NCBI GenBank assembly: GCA_050575255.1
Contig: JBNZDD010013721.1
Coordinates: 4,765,196-4,829,195 of the forward strand
From: Harriotta raleighana
Taxonomy: Eukaryota
Direction of reading: 5' to 3'
Length of the DNA stretch: 64,000 nt
Shown here: positions 49,901 to 61,900 of the stretch, one piece after another
Position numbering within the stretch: the stretch's first letter is position 1
How the letters are laid out: each line of letters begins with the position of its first letter
Program-made: the position numbers

Positions 49901-52900
49901 GTAGTGGTGACAGACATGAATCTTGGACTTTTAAAAAATTGAAAATCTTACAGGTAATTCCAGAAGGAATGAGCTAAAAAATCTGAGGTTGGGGCTTGAA
50001 CTTGCAACCTTCTGTTTCTTAAGAATAATAGTATGAATTGTACAGTACATAAAACCTTCCGAAAGTGCCAGAGGATCTCATTTCATCTCACAGTGAAAGT
50101 GGCTTCAAGGCTGAAGTTATTAGTGCCTCAGTAATAACCTGACATTATCAATTAAATTGTTAATCTAAAGCAAATTCATTACATAAATCCTTCATGAACT
50201 AATGGGCACATCGTTTAAACTGTCTGTCCATCTCATTTCTGGAACCAGAGTCCGAATGGCACTGAATTGATTGTATCAGCCAATGTCATTTATTTCCATC
50301 TGTTCACTTGGAAGAAGACTGTAAATAGCGTAATCAAATACAGCTGTCTCGCATTTCATAAAAGCAAACTCTAATATGCTTTGATTGAGTAAAATCATAA
50401 AACTGAAATTCTATCCCTTTGGGTGAGACGACAAGTATTCAAGCGAGCGTTTCCGGGAAAGACAAAACCTTAGGCACATTTCCTTACTCCGCATACCTCT
50501 GTTTACCAAGCAGTAAGTAAGAACCCAGGTGTTAGTCAGTGGCAGATCAATTTCCTGGGGTAACAATCCCTTCCCCCCCCAAATTCAATAAATAAAATTA
50601 ATAATTTGGTTACTCAATCCACGACCGTTTGTGGGAGATGGCTGTGCGCAATTGTCTGTCACATTTCACACCCAAAATACAGTGAATTCACTGTGAAGTT
50701 CTTTGAGAAATCTCAACATCATGATAAGGTGCTCTATCAAATGCAAGGTTTATTATTCTTATTAAATTTGTGCCAGATCCTCCACTAGAGATATCTCCAA
50801 TTCCTGGCTCTCTGTTGTAAATAATAATAATCCTTGGATTTGAGATGGCGCTTTTCACAGCACTTCAAAGCACTTCACAGAAGATATTGTAAAGTAAATT
50901 CACTGTATACAGTATTTTCCATAATTCAACTTCAGGTAATTTTCCAGTTCCTTTTTGAAGAACATCAGTCTCCGTAACCCTTTGTGGCAAAACGTCTTAT
51001 GTTCCAGAACACTTTCAGTCAATCTCCTCCTGAACAACAATAAAACTTGGCCTCTGACTTTACATCCTCAGTTTAGACTGATGTGTTTTGCCTACAAAAT
51101 CCACACTCCACTTTACAGTAAACCATGTGAAACAGGATTCCTTTGCAGAAGGAAATTTGCCTCTTTAAGCCCCAGTACTTCACTAATTGATTAGATGAGT
51201 GTCAATTGATGGACGTTGTGATATTAGGCTTCAATGCCTTGTGAGCTAATTGCCTCCACACACGTGCTCCCTGAACACCTGTATATCCTCTATAAATGTC
51301 TGTCAGGTGAGTGCAGGCTTAGCCTGGGAGAGGTTTCAACACTTTGAGTCCTGATGGCTGTGTCAAGAGAGGTGTGCTCACTGAAGGCTGTGCTGGTTGT
51401 CCAGGAGCAGCCTGTGAGTGAGGAGCAGGCCTGGGCTTTGTGCTATCAGAGCTGCCAGAGCTTGTGCAAGAGGCTCAACCTGAGCCAGGAACAGGGAGAA
51501 CCCCAGCCCCGCTTCCAAAGAGTTGGTGACTTGACCTTGTTCCAGGATGGTTCTGTCGAGTATGTTCCAGCCAATGGTAACTATTCCCTAGCTCACCAGT
51601 TATATCTTTGTGAGATATACTGCTAAGTTTAGTTATTGTGGGTTTGTAGTGGGGGGCTTACAGCAGTTCTGCCCCTGCTTTCTGGAGCTCCATCATGATG
51701 TCTCTCCACCTTTCCCTCTCCCTCCTATCCCTAGTGTAAAACCAGTGATTCTGTCAAGCTTTCCCCTTCCATCTTCTTCAGCTCCCTTGCCTCCCCCCAC
51801 TCTGCTCGGGAGCCCAGATATCGGGGTGAAGCACTTTGAGATGTTGTCCTGATGAGATAGCCACTGTATAAATTTATTGTATTATTAGTGTTGGTTGTAT
51901 TCAGACCCTGTGTGTGTTGGGGGTTGTAAAGTTGTGTAGTGTCTGGTCCTTCTGCTCTGCAATTAGACATCAGTTTGTGGCTGACACTCAGCCAATGGAC
52001 CCACTACCTGGCCATGTGAGGAATGAGGCTATAATAATAATTCTTGCATTTGATATTATCACTTCTTTGAGATGTTTCAAAGCACTTCACAGAATATACT
52101 GTAAAGTGAATTCACTGAATATTTTGTGGCTGAAATGCTGCAGCCAATTGCGCACAGCAATGTCCCACAGACAGTCATGGATGGAAGTGACCAATTTGGT
52201 ATTTTTTTAAAAATGTTTTCAAGGGAATGGTTAACCCCGGAAAAAGGGATCCGTCACTCAACTAAGGATTGGGTTCCTATGTATTACTACACAAACAGAG
52301 GAGCATGGGTGGAGTCGCAAAGTTTGCCTAAGGTTATGCCCCAGCCTGGTATCGAGCCCTTGCTTGTGAGGTGAATGAAGAATACATACATTGCCCAGCA
52401 TAGACCATCAGATCACATACCAAAGCAAGCCTCAAACTCCTCAAACATGTTCAATGAAAGCAATAACTTTTGTACAACTGTAGATCCAGGAAGAAACTTG
52501 CACAAAAATCGACAGGTTTAATGGATGATGAGCTATTAACAACCTTGTCTAATATAAATCTGTTTCCCTTTCAGGCGGCCTTGGGAGGCCATGCAGAGAG
52601 GAGGAGGTAATTGACTTTCCTTTTTAAACGACATCCAAACCAATTGTCTGAGCAGACGAGCCTGAAAATGAAAAGCTATTAAATATACCAAGGTTGCCCT
52701 GATGGATTGCTGCTCTCTTTGCCCTGTGGTAGCCCGTTATGGCCCTTGATTTCCGTGGCAGAGGTTCACTCTCTCCATTCCCATTCCCCCTCGTGCAAAG
52801 CAAGAGAAGCCTGAAGGTTATTTGTATTGAGATGTCTCTGGGTGAGGCTGGCCCAGGGATCTGGTATCAGTATTAATTATTCCCGGGGTTAGATGGGAAG

Positions 52901-58900: not shown

Positions 58901-61900
58901 ACGATCTAATGTGTGTGTCTCCAATAGGACCTTGATGTAGGTGAAAATAGGTTACAGGAAAAACCAATTTTAAATCTAGTTTTCACTTCATCAGGCGTTT
59001 CGACCGCTCCTTCGGTCACCTTTTTCCCCGTCCCTGGCTCTCCCCCGGGATCCGTTATTGTGAAGCGATCTGAGATGCTGCCCGGTGCGGAGGGCGCAAT
59101 ATAAATTGAAGTAATTGTTGTTGTAGCACTGAAATCTAAACTTTTCCCAGTCAAAAGTCAAACTTGTAGCCATTGGCTTGAAGACTTTGGGCTTAGCATC
59201 CCATGGCACTGAAACCAGGTGATCAAACTCCCATTGGAGAAAACTCTTTCAAATGTGCAATTCCTCCATCTCATTATAGACGTAGTTCCACTTCAATGTA
59301 TGCATCTCCCAATCAACTTCTTCCAACCGTTGACTGTGAGGAAGGTGGAGTCCAGTATAAGGACAGAAGCCTGCAGATACAGCTGGAGAAAAGCATTGCA
59401 CTCCTCCAGGTAAGATGGCAATTCACAGATATCCCATGGAGGAAATTCTGGATGGATGTGACCAAATGGTCCTTTTTCACCCAACCCATCTTGTGATTAC
59501 AGAGGTGAGAAGAACTTTTGCTCAGAGGGTTTTATAACATGAATCCCTTCCCACAAATTACCCAAACCACTGCTGAGCAGCATTCAAATGGAATTGGTTG
59601 GTGGATAGGGGAAATAAAGGTAATTGGTAGAGATTAGAGTGTGGAAACTCCAGTGGAAATGAGCATCAGAGCAGAACTGCCTCTTTCTGTCCAGCATAAC
59701 TTCAATAATTTTAACAACCACACAGAAAAGGTCCCAGAGCATAAGATGCTACCCTATACGATGTATGATTATCTACTTTTCTATCGGTGGTTTGTCTATA
59801 AGATGATGATGTCCTCCTACAGGTGGAAAATTCACGGTGTGGATAAAGAACTAGAAGGTGCAGTTGGACAGCGTCTTCGGCTTAACAGTTGTTGAGCTGC
59901 ACACACTTGTCCAGATCACATGCAAGTCGTGTGTGAGGTAAGTGTAGAAGATGGACTTTCTCCAGGATTATAATGAGGGGGAGGATATTAAAAGTACTGC
60001 ATAGTGAAAGCTCCGAGAAGTGATGGAGCTGGAAATTGAGTGTGAATCAATGTCACATGTTAGCCTCTGGTCTGAACTGAAGTTCAAGCCCATTTTGGAA
60101 TGGATCGACAAAATAACAGTTAAAGTAACTGGGAAGTGTGTAAAGTGTGGAATAACCCGTAGGATGCTCCATAAACCCGATTGTCCAACACCCTGGGATG
60201 TTTTACTGATGTGCGAGAATACTATACAGTGCAATTTGTTGTTGCAAATTTCATGCTTGTATTCCTAGAGTATTGCTGGTGCCTGTTGCTGTCCACCTGA
60301 TTGCTTCCTTTAAGGAAGATCACCTGGACCGACGTGTACGAGGAATTGTTTGAGTAACAAAATCCATGAATGAAAACATCCACTCCTGCCACTTGAGGCC
60401 ATCACAGCTGAAATGAAAGCCGTGGTGTGTGTGTGCGCATTTTGCTGAGTACAGCATTCCTCTTGACCTGTACAGTTTTTTTTATATAAACTTTGATGAT
60501 ATTGCACCAGAGAGAGATTTTATCTGAAGTGGAAGCACAATCCTTTGGATACATAATCTATTCTGGGAACATTATTTAATAATATTTTTGCTTCAAGACT
60601 TGAACTGAGCAGCGGTCCATGATGGAGCTTATTTATACTTGCTAGCTCTAACTTGTTAACTTGAACTGTAAGCAAGTTTGGATGAAAAATGTACGATTCC
60701 CACAAAAGATTCTCATGATGGGTGCTGCAAGATGAAACGTTTAACTGGCTTCTCATCCACGACAACCCAGATGGTTTCTACAATGATCCTATCGCATTGT
60801 GAATGGTCAAAGGAAACTCGACACCATTTTGAAAAGGATTCTTTGCTGAAGTGACTCACTTTGTTTCAATCGAATTTGAATCTAGATTTGGAAGTTTTAT
60901 TCTGACACATTTTGTTTTCTTTCCACAAATCTAGCTTTAATTTTTAGATTTAAGGAAATGGTGATATTGACACTACCTTTGCTGAGTCTTTAATCTTAAA
61001 ATTGTGCAGTGAAACTTGTGTAGCATTGAATTGCCTGATTAAGACAAAGGTAAATTTATGGCTTGCTGTCCTCTCTATAGTGTTCTTTTGATAGGATCAA
61101 GGTGAAGTATGAGCTAGTTTATATTGGTCTGCAGTTAGTCATAGTTTGATCCAAATGGAGAGACTGCTTTTCTTCAGTCAATTAGTCCTTTTTTACTGAT
61201 GTGGCTTGTATTTCTGAACGGACATTGTAAATTGTCACTTTACGTTTTATAAATGTTTTTGAACACCGACCAGTAAACACTTGTCCCACACAGCTGCCAG
61301 GTGGAATTTGTTGTAACTATAGTAATGGATATTGTGTTCACAAACAGCTCACTGTTTAGTCACTAAATTTGTATCCCAATTTCACCCCTCTGATGTACAC
61401 AGCTCCATGAAGCTTTCTTTCACTCGAAAGGATCTAATTTGCTTTAAAATGGGAAGGGGAGTTTTATCCTATTTATTATTCTGCTTATGTAAAATACTCA
61501 AGTGTTTGAAAACATGTTGAAGTATGTACATAATAAATAATTGGCTATTTTTGTACAATCCATTTGATGGAAGTAAATGATTTACACTGAAGCCCTTAAT
61601 TTGGGAGGATGGGAGGTGCACATTATTTAAGTATTGCTGCAGTCTCTGTATTGGAATATATCTTAATTTATATCTTTCAGCATGATCTTTTTTTTTTCTG
61701 TCATCTCTTGATTTTTCCTAGAGTTTATTCCATGGTGTTAAACTGGTTGTCATTTATTTTACACTGCTCTGTTTTCCAGGTTTTATAGTTGCATTTCTCT
61801 TCAACTGAACTTGCGTTTATTTCAGTTGGGCAGAGATGTGAAATGTGATCACTCCAACAAAAATGAAGTCAGTCCGAACACATGCAAGACATAACACCAT

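What the first reader, a model, noticed from the sequence alone, without database searches (positions are those of the whole stretch)
51354..59937. Candidate third vertebrate Spire paralog beside a third Piezo and PIGT
Seen: 15 exons encode KIND, four WH2 positions and half a FYVE-type finger in Spire order, but the sequence is far from Spire1/2 and only about 523 aa. Established: mammals have two Spire genes; PIEZO1 and SPIRE2 are both at human 16q24.3, PIEZO2 and SPIRE1 both at 18p11.2, and PIGT is at 20q13, part of the same paralogon. Inference: this is the third surviving Piezo-Spire block from whole-genome duplication, so a little-characterised Spire ohnolog that I know of no human counterpart for.
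Basis: partly seen in the sequence, partly recalled or inferred. Interest (0 to 1): 0.82.

Follow-up and report, generated by a model that had tools for sequence, protein, structure and literature searches.

The report
SPIRE3 gene beside Piezo and PIGT

Summary
A + strand gene starts at the ATG at 51354. Its best-splice model has 15 GT-AG exons, 1473 nt or 491 codons, with stop TAA at 59939-59941. Three exons match Pfam KIND in collinear order (E 5e-13, 1.9e-13, 5e-6), and their best solved relative is the human SPIRE1 KIND domain, at only 57 identities in 132 alignment columns. Four WH2-like positions follow. The first has tool support; the others rest on my reading. The C-terminal half is degenerate: I found no myosin-V motif, and 6 of the 8 zinc-binding cysteines. 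The 3' exon chain is ambiguous, with 107 frame-compatible chains.

Neighbours: a Piezo gene lies head-to-head, with the two start codons about 9 kb apart. It is closer to Piezo2 than to Piezo1. PIGT lies tail-to-tail.

The literature already names SPIRE3 as a gnathostome paralogue that includes a cartilaginous fish and was lost in mammals and euteleosts (bioRxiv 10.1101/591974; PMC11231147). PIEZO3 is named in PMC13228305.

The small addition is physical SPIRE3-Piezo linkage, which neither paper set mentions. I ran no tree, and I did not search the joined spliced protein.

The parts
51354..51576 (+). Exon 1: start codon and N-terminal part of the KIND domain
   Evidence: Pfam KIND E 5e-13, profile 2-60. 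Human SPIRE1 KIND 2yle_A E 3.5e-10, 26 of 72 columns identical. Donor GT.
52575..52606 (+). Exon 2: 32 nt, KIND linker
   Evidence: AG/GT, phase 1 to 0, split codon GGC. Too short to search alone.
53400..53507 (+). Exon 3: KIND core. An in-frame alternative donor at 53558 would add 17 aa.
   Evidence: Pfam KIND E 7.8e-13, profile 83-117. The long form gives E 1.9e-13, profile 83-123. SPIRE1 KIND 3r7g_A E 6.8e-8, 21 of 38 identical.
54028..54141 (+). Exon 4: C-terminal helix of KIND
   Evidence: Pfam KIND E 5e-6, profile 163-194. SPIRE1 KIND E 0.12, 10 of 22 identical. An upstream extension to 53959 added only 2 profile positions.
54673..54729 (+). Exon 5: 19-aa linker before the WH2 array
   Evidence: AG/GT, phase 0 to 0. 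Too short to search.
55147..55311 (+). Exon 6: WH2-A (about 55156-55206) and WH2-B (about 55255-55308)
   Evidence: PDB 3m3n_W tandem WH2 construct E 0.0036 over residues 7-34. The Atlas's nearest named cluster is 'Protein spire isoform x1', score 0.85. Both positions fit my WH2 regex. No Pfam WH2 hit.
55456..55527 (+). Exon 7: helix part of WH2-C (about 55489-55521)
   Evidence: AG/GT, phase 0 to 0. Assigned by position and reading only. No Pfam hit.
56130..56256 (+). Exon 8: the NLKA motif closing WH2-C (56142-56153) and WH2-D (about 56172-56228, ending TLRLV)
   Evidence: AG/GT. Reading only. PDB gave 2 chance-level hits (E 0.87, 1.9) and Pfam gave none.
56509..56612 (+). Exon 9: variable linker, basic at its end
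   Evidence: AG/GT, phase 1 to 0. No Pfam family.
57103..57178 (+). Exon 10: acidic linker, at the place where the myosin-V motif would lie
   Evidence: AG/GT. 0 PDB hits at E up to 10. No LL.A..L motif.
57383..57528 (+). Exon 11: variable region, 48 aa
   Evidence: AG/GT, phase 1 to 0. No Pfam family.
57702..57806 (+). Exon 12: helix at the SPIRE-box position
   Evidence: AG/GT. No Pfam hit and no usable Atlas hit. Assigned by position just before the zinc finger.
57953..58018 (+). Exon 13: first two cysteine pairs of the FYVE-type finger
   Evidence: Two CxxC (CFCC, CQLC) in 22 aa. AG/GT, donor score 6.7. No Pfam hit.
58287..58314 (+). Exon 14: 28 nt, uncertain
   Evidence: Good splice signals (acceptor 1.3, donor 7.2) but no cysteine. 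It is one of 107 possible chains.
58561..58613 (+). Alternative exon that would supply a third CxxC pair (CSRC)
   Evidence: Starts in phase 0 after exon 13. Acceptor -1.7, donor 2.7. To reach the last exon it needs a further exon or a very poor acceptor. Unproven.
59889..59941 (+). Last coding exon with one CxxC (CKSC) and stop TAA
   Evidence: Phase fits exon 14, split codon GTT. Weak acceptor -0.6. A strong unused donor-like site lies at 59937/8, score 7.8.
1..42348 (-). Piezo gene, N-terminus inside the window, C-terminal end cut by the window start. Probably PIEZO3.
   Evidence: Pfam Piezo_TM1-24 (41130-41288, 4.1e-7). Piezo_THU9_anchor and Piezo_cap in 4 of 4 ORFs. Scores against Piezo2 versus Piezo1: 126 v 104, 132 v 81, 124.5 v 115 bits. 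65/86 versus 49/85 identical. Start-codon ORF at 42253-42348.
62626..63036 (-). Last coding exon of PIGT, inside this open frame
   Evidence: Pfam Gpi16 E 2.9e-23, profile 497-552 of 571.
27625..27954 (-). Inverted dead copy of Spire exon 1 plus about 110 bp upstream, inside a Piezo intron
   Evidence: 86.5% identity over 348 nt. The alignment shows two in-frame stops and a 15-bp deletion before the ATG.

Best explanation
The locus is this animal's SPIRE3 gene, the third gnathostome paralogue of the Spire actin-nucleation factors.

Shown: a 15-exon open gene whose N-terminal half is a recognisable KIND domain followed by a WH2 array.

Inferred from what is established for Spire1, Spire2 and fly Spire: the WH2 repeats line up actin monomers into a nucleus, and the KIND domain binds the C-terminal tail of FMN-type formins, which then elongate the filament.

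The C-terminal half normally ties Spire to myosin V (GTBM motif) and to Rab-bearing vesicle membranes (SPIRE-box plus an eight-cysteine FYVE-type finger plus a flanking helix). Here it is short and degenerate. So this protein probably still nucleates actin with a formin, but its motor and membrane coupling is weakened or different.

The gene sits head-to-head with a Piezo2-like Piezo, most likely PIEZO3, and tail-to-tail with PIGT. This fits a chromosome-20-type paralogous block.
For: Gene model: 15 GT-AG exons, 491 codons, no stop in the split codons.

KIND: 3 collinear Pfam hits, and the SPIRE1 KIND domain was the best PDB hit in 3 of 3 searches.

WH2: position A hits a WH2 construct, with a Spire cluster as an Atlas lead.

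FYVE: three CxxC pairs at the expected place.

Exons 3 and 4 are separated by a 520-nt intron. This matches the reported SPIRE1/SPIRE3 structure and not SPIRE2 (passage).

KIND identity to human SPIRE1 is only 57 of 132 columns.

The literature reports a SPIRE3 clade in gnathostomes, including a cartilaginous fish, with 'some SPIRE3' lacking parts of the canonical array.

Neighbours: Piezo families, Gpi16, and Piezo2 scoring above Piezo1. PIEZO3 is reported as the sister of PIEZO2.
Against: No phylogeny was run, and no SPIRE2 or SPIRE3 sequence was available to compare. Subfamily assignment therefore rests on gene structure, divergence from SPIRE1, synteny and the literature.

- WH2-B, C and D, the SPIRE-box and the finger gave no Pfam, PDB or Atlas support.
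- No exon holds the LL-x-A-x-x-L core of the myosin-V motif.
- The 3' exon chain is ambiguous.
- The published PIEZO3 synteny is gnas-piezo3-npepl1 and does not mention SPIRE or PIGT. The window shows neither GNAS nor NPEPL1 on the Piezo 5' side.
- There is no expression evidence.
Confidence: 0.8

Rival explanations
1. It is SPIRE3 by descent but is decaying, either as an unprocessed pseudogene or as a gene whose C-terminal module is already dead in this lineage.
For: The best-splice chain has 6 of 8 zinc cysteines and ends two residues after the last pair, so the flanking helix is missing. No myosin-V motif was found. The protein is about 491-508 aa. The last acceptor is weak (-0.6). A dead copy of exon 1 lies nearby. 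SPIRE3 has been lost repeatedly in other lineages.
Against: All 15 exons are open with canonical splice sites and consistent phases. The KIND exons still score above Pfam's curated cut-off. By contrast, the true dead copy of exon 1 has already gathered two stops at 86.5% identity. An alternative exon could restore the third cysteine pair.
Confidence: 0.12
2. It is a lineage-specific, fast-evolving duplicate of SPIRE1 or SPIRE2, not the old SPIRE3 paralogue.
For: No tree was run. The only measured distance is to human SPIRE1 KIND. A partial duplicate of exon 1 shows that this locus does duplicate.
Against: Separate exons 3 and 4 argue against SPIRE2. The position beside PIGT and a Piezo2-like Piezo matches a paralogous block, not a local duplicate. 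A SPIRE3 clade with a cartilaginous-fish member is published.
Confidence: 0.05
3. The block is the chromosome-18-type one. The Piezo would be PIEZO2 and the Spire an unusually divergent SPIRE1.
For: The Piezo exons score best against Piezo2 in 3 of 3 exons, with 65 of 86 identical in one. In humans PIEZO2 and SPIRE1 share 18p11.2 (recalled).
Against: PIGT is adjacent, and it is on human chromosome 20 (recalled). KIND is only 43% identical to human SPIRE1. PIEZO3 is reported as sister to PIEZO2, so the score pattern is expected for PIEZO3 too. NAPG and APCDD1 are reported beside piezo2, and neither was seen on the Piezo 5' side: 0 of 10 ORFs there hit any family.
Confidence: 0.03

Closest known systems
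SPIRE3 of jawed vertebrates (Callorhinchus milii SPIRE3, chicken Gg-SPIRE3; Kollmar, Kerkhoff and colleagues, bioRxiv 10.1101/591974 and PMC11231147)
   Same: A third Spire gene with no mammalian counterpart. KIND then WH2 then a C-terminal finger. Exons 3 and 4 are separate. 'Some SPIRE3' depart from the canonical domain array.
   Different: Sauropsid SPIRE3 is reported to lack a recognisable third WH2. Here a third position can still be read (exons 7/8), by my reading only. I saw none of their sequences. CyMoBase and the supplements were not available, so identity to any SPIRE3 is unmeasured.
Human SPIRE1 (KIND domain structures 2yle, 2ylf, 3r7g, 3rbw)
   Same: Best solved relative of exons 1, 3 and 4, with collinear matches. 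Same order of modules.
   Different: Only 26/72, 21/38 and 10/22 identical columns. The protein is about 491-508 aa. The myosin-V motif core is absent. The long insert and one cysteine pair of the finger are missing in the best-splice chain.
SPIRE-like proteins without the FYVE_2 module (Physarum, second Amoebidium gene; PMC11231147 passages)
   Same: KIND plus WH2 retained while the membrane module is reduced.
   Different: Here the first half of the finger and a last cysteine pair are still present, so the module is reduced rather than absent. The gene is a vertebrate paralogue, not an ancient side branch.
PIEZO3 (PMC13228305, preprint of May 2026), for the neighbouring gene
   Same: A vertebrate Piezo closer to PIEZO2 than to PIEZO1. 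Reported present in chondrichthyans and linked to chromosome-20-type genes.
   Different: The reported neighbours are gnas and npepl1. The window instead shows Spire and PIGT on the Piezo 5' side. The other side is outside the window.

Membership tests
SPIRE family (canonical animal SPIRE as defined in PMC11231147) | N-terminal KIND domain | tested here: met
   Pfam KIND on 3 exons, collinear, each at or above the 26.7-bit cut-off (49.8, 49.1-51.1, 26.9 bits). SPIRE1 KIND was the best PDB hit in 3 of 3 searches.
SPIRE family | [quoted passage not shown] | tested here: inconclusive
   WH2-A hits a WH2 construct, E 0.0036, with a Spire Atlas lead. A and B fit my regex, which is barely above chance (5 hits against 2.4 in shuffles). 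C and D are by reading only. Pfam WH2 hit 0 of 10 exons.
SPIRE family | Myosin-V globular-tail binding motif (two adjacent leucines, a conserved alanine three residues on, then a leucine; human Spir-2 L408, L409, A411, L414; PMC5021521 passages) | tested here: not met
   Neither LL.A..L nor a relaxed form occurs inside any of the 15 exon peptides. Exon 10 gave 0 PDB hits. Motifs spanning an exon junction were checked only by eye.
SPIRE family | SPIRE-box helix directly before the finger | tested here: inconclusive
   Exon 12 lies in the right place, but there was no Pfam hit and no usable Atlas hit.
SPIRE family | FYVE-type finger with eight zinc-binding cysteines plus a C-terminal flanking helix (PMC11231147 Fig. 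5 legend) | tested here: inconclusive
   6 of 8 cysteines are present in the best-splice chain (exon 13: two pairs; last exon: one pair). An alternative exon at 58561-58613 holds a further pair. No flanking helix is present unless an unfound downstream exon exists.
SPIRE3 subfamily | Groups with SPIRE3, not SPIRE1 or SPIRE2, in a phylogeny | not testable with these tools
   No vertebrate protein collection was open. The joined spliced protein was not to be searched. The only Spire sequences seen were human SPIRE1 KIND chains.
SPIRE3 subfamily | Exons 3 and 4 separate (fused in SPIRE2; bioRxiv 10.1101/591974) | tested here: met
   Intron 53508-54027 lies between the two KIND exons. This excludes the SPIRE2 structure but not SPIRE1.
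SPIRE3 subfamily | Not an orthologue of SPIRE1 (clearly lower identity than an orthologue would show) | tested here: inconclusive
   57 of 132 KIND columns are identical to human SPIRE1. No shark SPIRE1 was available as a yardstick. My expectation of well over 60% for an orthologue is recalled, not measured.
PIEZO3 (neighbouring gene) | Closer to PIEZO2 than to PIEZO1 (PMC13228305) | tested here: met
   3 of 3 exons score higher against Piezo2, with 65/86 versus 49/85 identical. A PIEZO2 orthologue would give the same pattern.
PIEZO3 (neighbouring gene) | Synteny gnas-piezo3-npepl1 | tested here: not met
   On the Piezo 5' side the next genes are Spire and PIGT. 0 of the 10 longest ORFs between Piezo and Spire hit any Pfam family. 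The 3' side lies outside the window.

The most novel reading that the evidence does not exclude
In this lineage SPIRE3 would be a naturally uncoupled Spire. It keeps the formin-binding KIND domain and all four WH2 repeats, but it has lost the myosin-V motif, one zinc site of the finger and the Rab-binding flanking helix. It would then nucleate actin in the cytosol rather than on Rab vesicles. It would also be transcribed divergently from PIEZO3, 9 kb away, as a conserved pair. That pair would tie the SPIRE1-3 triplication to the two vertebrate genome duplications, which the SPIRE authors left open.
Probability: 0.15. Interest if true: 0.45.

Novelty: already known. Interest (0 to 1): 0.2.

Why it matters
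SPIRE3 has been named but never studied functionally. In my full-text search only 3 Spire papers mention it, each in a few sentences.

This window adds two modest points:
- SPIRE3 lies directly beside a Piezo2-like Piezo and PIGT. That is synteny evidence for an origin in the vertebrate genome duplications, which the SPIRE phylogeny could not settle. Neither the SPIRE papers (0 occurrences of 'synten') nor the PIEZO3 preprint (0 occurrences of 'spire' or 'pigt') mention it.
- The N-terminal actin and formin module looks conserved while the motor and membrane module looks eroded. This suggests what SPIRE3 may have specialised in.

Neither point changes the picture of the family.

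Tried and rejected
One search tried a whole-frame translation of the locus for Pfam. The tool needs open frames, so I went exon by exon.

Searches that found nothing:
- Pfam gave no family for 7 of the 10 exon peptides (exons 6-12).
- Pfam also gave none for exon 13, the last-exon ORF, the 59197-59409 ORF, or the ORFs holding the alternative exon and the read-through of exon 14.
- The LRR-capping hit on 60008-60265 (E 0.033, 14.4 bits against a cut-off of 33) is chance.
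- PDB gave only chance-level hits for exon 8 and none for exon 10.
- The Atlas gave no usable hit for exon 12.

My WH2 regex was written after seeing the sequence. It caught 2 of the 4 proposed positions and 3 places elsewhere, against a mean of 2.4 in 30 shuffles. I give it little weight.

Gene-model ideas rejected:
- A terminal exon at 59966-60023 would need a 28-nt intron, too short by recalled knowledge of vertebrate introns, and has acceptor score -4.7.
- An upstream extension of exon 4 to 53959 added only 2 KIND profile positions.
- An acceptor at 59872, which would join the alternative exon directly to the last ORF, scores -10.6.
- Downstream exons after the donor-like site at 59937: 14 candidates listed, none convincing.
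- A first enumeration with stricter thresholds found 0 chains with two further CxxC. The looser one found 107 chains, so the 3' end cannot be settled from sequence alone.

Literature: the search for Y134K with KIND and Spir found 0 papers. The search for SPIRE1, SPIRE2, PIEZO1, PIEZO2 and ohnolog together (at least 4 of the 5) found 0 papers.

Tools not used because they could not bear on the question:
- Structure prediction, fold search and complex prediction. The joined protein was not to be used, and no actin or formin partner was available.
- The genome-contig scan, which covers bacteria and archaea only.
- search_dna_similar.

Unchecked:
- Any comparison with SPIRE2 or SPIRE3 sequences, a tree, orthologues in other vertebrates, RNA-seq and dN/dS.
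- The papers' supplements. The SPIRE tree in Supplementary Fig. 1 of PMC11231147 and Table S1 and Fig. S1 of PMC13228305 may bear directly on subfamily assignment and shark synteny.

Full report
WHAT IS THERE. The window is vertebrate-like DNA with one N and CpG observed/expected of 0.33. I do not take it for human.

On the + strand an ATG at 51354 follows an in-frame stop by two codons. It opens a chain of exons that all have AG and GT at their borders: 51354-51576, 52575-52606, 53400-53507, 54028-54141, 54673-54729, 55147-55311, 55456-55527, 56130-56256, 56509-56612, 57103-57178, 57383-57528, 57702-57806, 57953-58018, 58287-58314 and 59889-59938. TAA follows at 59939-59941.

The lengths sum to 1473 nt, or 491 codons. 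The four codons split by introns read GGC, GGG, GAT and GTT. An in-frame alternative donor at 53558 would add 17 residues. Its length estimate of about 523 aa is somewhat high for this chain.

DOMAIN EVIDENCE, EXON BY EXON. I left out the joined step: no search, fold or tree used the spliced protein.

KIND:
- Of 10 exon peptides sent to Pfam, 3 matched KIND at profile positions 2-60, 83-117 and 163-194 (E 5e-13, 7.8e-13, 5e-6). The other 7 matched nothing at E up to 10.
- The same three exons each found the human SPIRE1 KIND domain as best solved relative (E 3.5e-10, 6.8e-8, 0.12).
- They have 26 of 72, 21 of 38 and 10 of 22 identical alignment columns, or 57 of 132 overall.

WH2:
- Exon 6 matched a tandem WH2 construct, 3m3n_W, at E 0.0036.
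- Its nearest named cluster in the ESM Atlas is 'Protein spire isoform x1 (Fragment)', score 0.85 with 180 of 256 shared features. The tool itself rates that as a lead only.
- By reading, four helix-plus-basic-motif units follow one another in exons 6, 6, 7/8 and 8, ending NLKK, TLQKV, NLKA and TLRLV.
- A regex that I wrote afterwards caught only the first two, plus three places elsewhere, against 2.4 expected in shuffles.

THE C-TERMINAL HALF. Passages of PMC5021521 name the residues that anchor the myosin-V binding motif of human Spir-2: two adjacent leucines, an alanine and a further leucine. No exon peptide contains that pattern or a relaxed form. Exon 10 found nothing in the PDB.

Exon 12 lies where the SPIRE-box should be, but it found no Pfam family and no Atlas hit.

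Exon 13 carries two CxxC pairs in 22 residues and the last exon carries one. The canonical SPIRE finger has eight cysteines and a flanking helix (PMC11231147 figure legend). The best-splice chain therefore has 6 of 8 cysteines and ends two residues after the last pair.

This part of the model is weak:
- Between 58019 and 59888 there are 107 frame-compatible exon chains under loose splice thresholds.
- One alternative exon, 58561-58613, would supply a further CxxC pair, but its acceptor is poor and it needs a further exon to reach the last one.
- The donor-like site at 59937 is strong (score 7.8), yet I found no convincing downstream exon among 14 candidates.
- The PIGT stop codon lies only about 2.7 kb away, which limits the room for one.

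NEIGHBOURS. A Piezo gene on the - strand fills the window from its start to 42348.
- Four of 4 tested ORFs hit Piezo_THU9_anchor or Piezo_cap.
- The ORF at 41130-41288 hits positions 1-30 of Piezo_TM1-24.
- An ORF with a start codon lies at 42253-42348.

The Piezo and Spire start codons are therefore about 9.0 kb apart and divergent. No CpG island lies between them, and none of the 10 longest ORFs there matches any Pfam family.

Three Piezo exons all score higher against Piezo2 than Piezo1: 126.4 v 104.5, 132.2 v 80.9 and 124.5 v 115.2 bits. One exon is 65/86 identical to mouse Piezo2 (6kg7) and 49/85 to a Piezo1 chain (8zu8).

On the other side, a - strand ORF at 62626-63036 matches the end of Gpi16/PIGT (E 2.9e-23). 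It is convergent with Spire.

WHAT IS KNOWN. A full-text search for SPIRE3 listed 10 of the 11 papers holding the term. Three of them concern Spire.
- bioRxiv 10.1101/591974 (passages): gnathostomes have three SPIRE groups, named SPIRE1 to SPIRE3, with a Callorhinchus milii SPIRE3 in the data set. SPIRE3 was lost in the ancestors of mammals and of Euteleostei. The three subfamilies share exon-intron structure except between the myosin motif and the SPIRE-box. SPIRE2's third exon is a fusion of exons 3 and 4 of SPIRE1/SPIRE3. Sauropsid SPIRE3 lacks a recognisable third WH2. 'Some SPIRE3' depart from the canonical array. [quoted passage not shown]
- PMC11231147 (passages) repeats the main points.
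- bioRxiv 10.1101/2020.06.19.161109 (one passage) mentions SPIRE3 in one sentence.

For the neighbour, PMC13228305 names PIEZO3 (abstract, sections 5 and 6, passages). It is reported present in chondrichthyans, holosteans, teleosts, amphibians and reptiles. It is closer to PIEZO2 than to PIEZO1, with synteny prelid3b-...-gnas-piezo3-npepl1-...-apcdd1l-vapb, and a human pseudogene between NPEPL1 and GNAS on chromosome 20. That preprint never mentions SPIRE or PIGT (0 occurrences each). The SPIRE paper never mentions synteny. A search for papers holding at least four of SPIRE1, SPIRE2, PIEZO1, PIEZO2 and ohnolog found none.

WHICH SPIRE. The separate exons 3 and 4 exclude the SPIRE2 gene structure. 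The 43% KIND identity to human SPIRE1 is low for an orthologue. That expectation is recalled, not measured.

PIGT is on human 20q13, PIEZO2 and SPIRE1 on 18p11.2, and PIEZO1 and SPIRE2 on 16q24.3 (all recalled). Also by recall, SPIRE1 lies beside PRELID3A and TUBB6 and near GNAL on 18p. These mirror PRELID3B, TUBB1 and GNAS in the published PIEZO3 block. A Spire in the chromosome-20-type block is thus what a duplication model predicts.

Against this, the window does not show GNAS or NPEPL1 next to Piezo. Either this species has a rearranged block or the published scheme omits genes.

I assign the gene to SPIRE3 with confidence about 0.8.

HOW IT PROBABLY WORKS. Shown: an open gene with a KIND domain and at least one WH2 supported by tools.

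Inferred from the family: the WH2 array binds actin monomers and nucleates filaments, and KIND binds the tail of FMN-type formins, which then elongate them.

The absence of the myosin-V motif core, the short finger and the missing flanking helix suggest that coupling to myosin V and Rab membranes is weakened or lost. This rests on an uncertain 3' model.

RIVALS.
- A decaying SPIRE3 (0.12).
- A recent duplicate of SPIRE1 or SPIRE2 (0.05).
- A chromosome-18-type block with PIEZO2 and a divergent SPIRE1 (0.03).

Evidence for and against each is listed with it.

NOVELTY AND SCORE. The gene family and its loss in mammals are in print, as is PIEZO3. The finding is correct but already known.

The additions are the physical SPIRE3-Piezo-PIGT linkage and the contrast between a conserved N-terminal half and an eroded C-terminal half. 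Interest 0.2.

LIMITS.
- No vertebrate protein or genome collection was open, so there is no tree, no orthologue search and no dN/dS.
- Supplements were closed, and they hold the SPIRE tree and the PIEZO3 species table.
- Splice scores come from a rough table of my own and serve only for ranking.

Noticed in passing
window 27625-27954 (- strand), compared with 51242-51589: An inverted copy of Spire exon 1 with about 110 bp of its upstream flank lies inside a Piezo intron. It is 86.5% identical over 348 nt. Within the exon part it has two in-frame stops and no indels, and it has a 15-bp deletion just before the ATG. It is a dead partial duplicate.
   Followed up: partly
window 7557-9663 and 9665-11771, with the single N at 9664: The two stretches are 100% identical over 2107 nt with no gaps, and they flank the only N in the window. 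They include Piezo coding exons (for example 8103-8441 = 10211-10549). This looks like a false tandem duplication made at an assembly join. I did not try to resolve the N.
   Followed up: yes
window 52018-52263, 56620-56876, 50447-50909 and at least 15 other places: One interspersed repeat family, 70-88% identical between copies, fills many introns of both genes. Several copies end in a GC-then-ATATAAAT-like tail. From memory this resembles SINEs of cartilaginous fishes. I did not test that.
   Followed up: no
window 42349-51353: The 9-kb divergent spacer between the Piezo and Spire start codons has no CpG island: CpG observed/expected is at most 0.59 in 500-nt steps. None of its 10 longest ORFs hits a Pfam family. 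Some of these ORFs, around 46044-46640, looked like retroelement remains by eye, but Pfam did not confirm that.
   Followed up: partly
window 59937-59943: The stop codon of the last Spire exon overlaps a near-consensus donor site (score 7.8, the best in the gene). Splicing to an unfound downstream exon could bypass the stop and give a longer C-terminus.
   Followed up: partly
window 1208-1909 (+ strand): A 234-aa open frame inside the Piezo gene region looks by eye like the end of a LINE open reading frame. Not searched.
   Followed up: no
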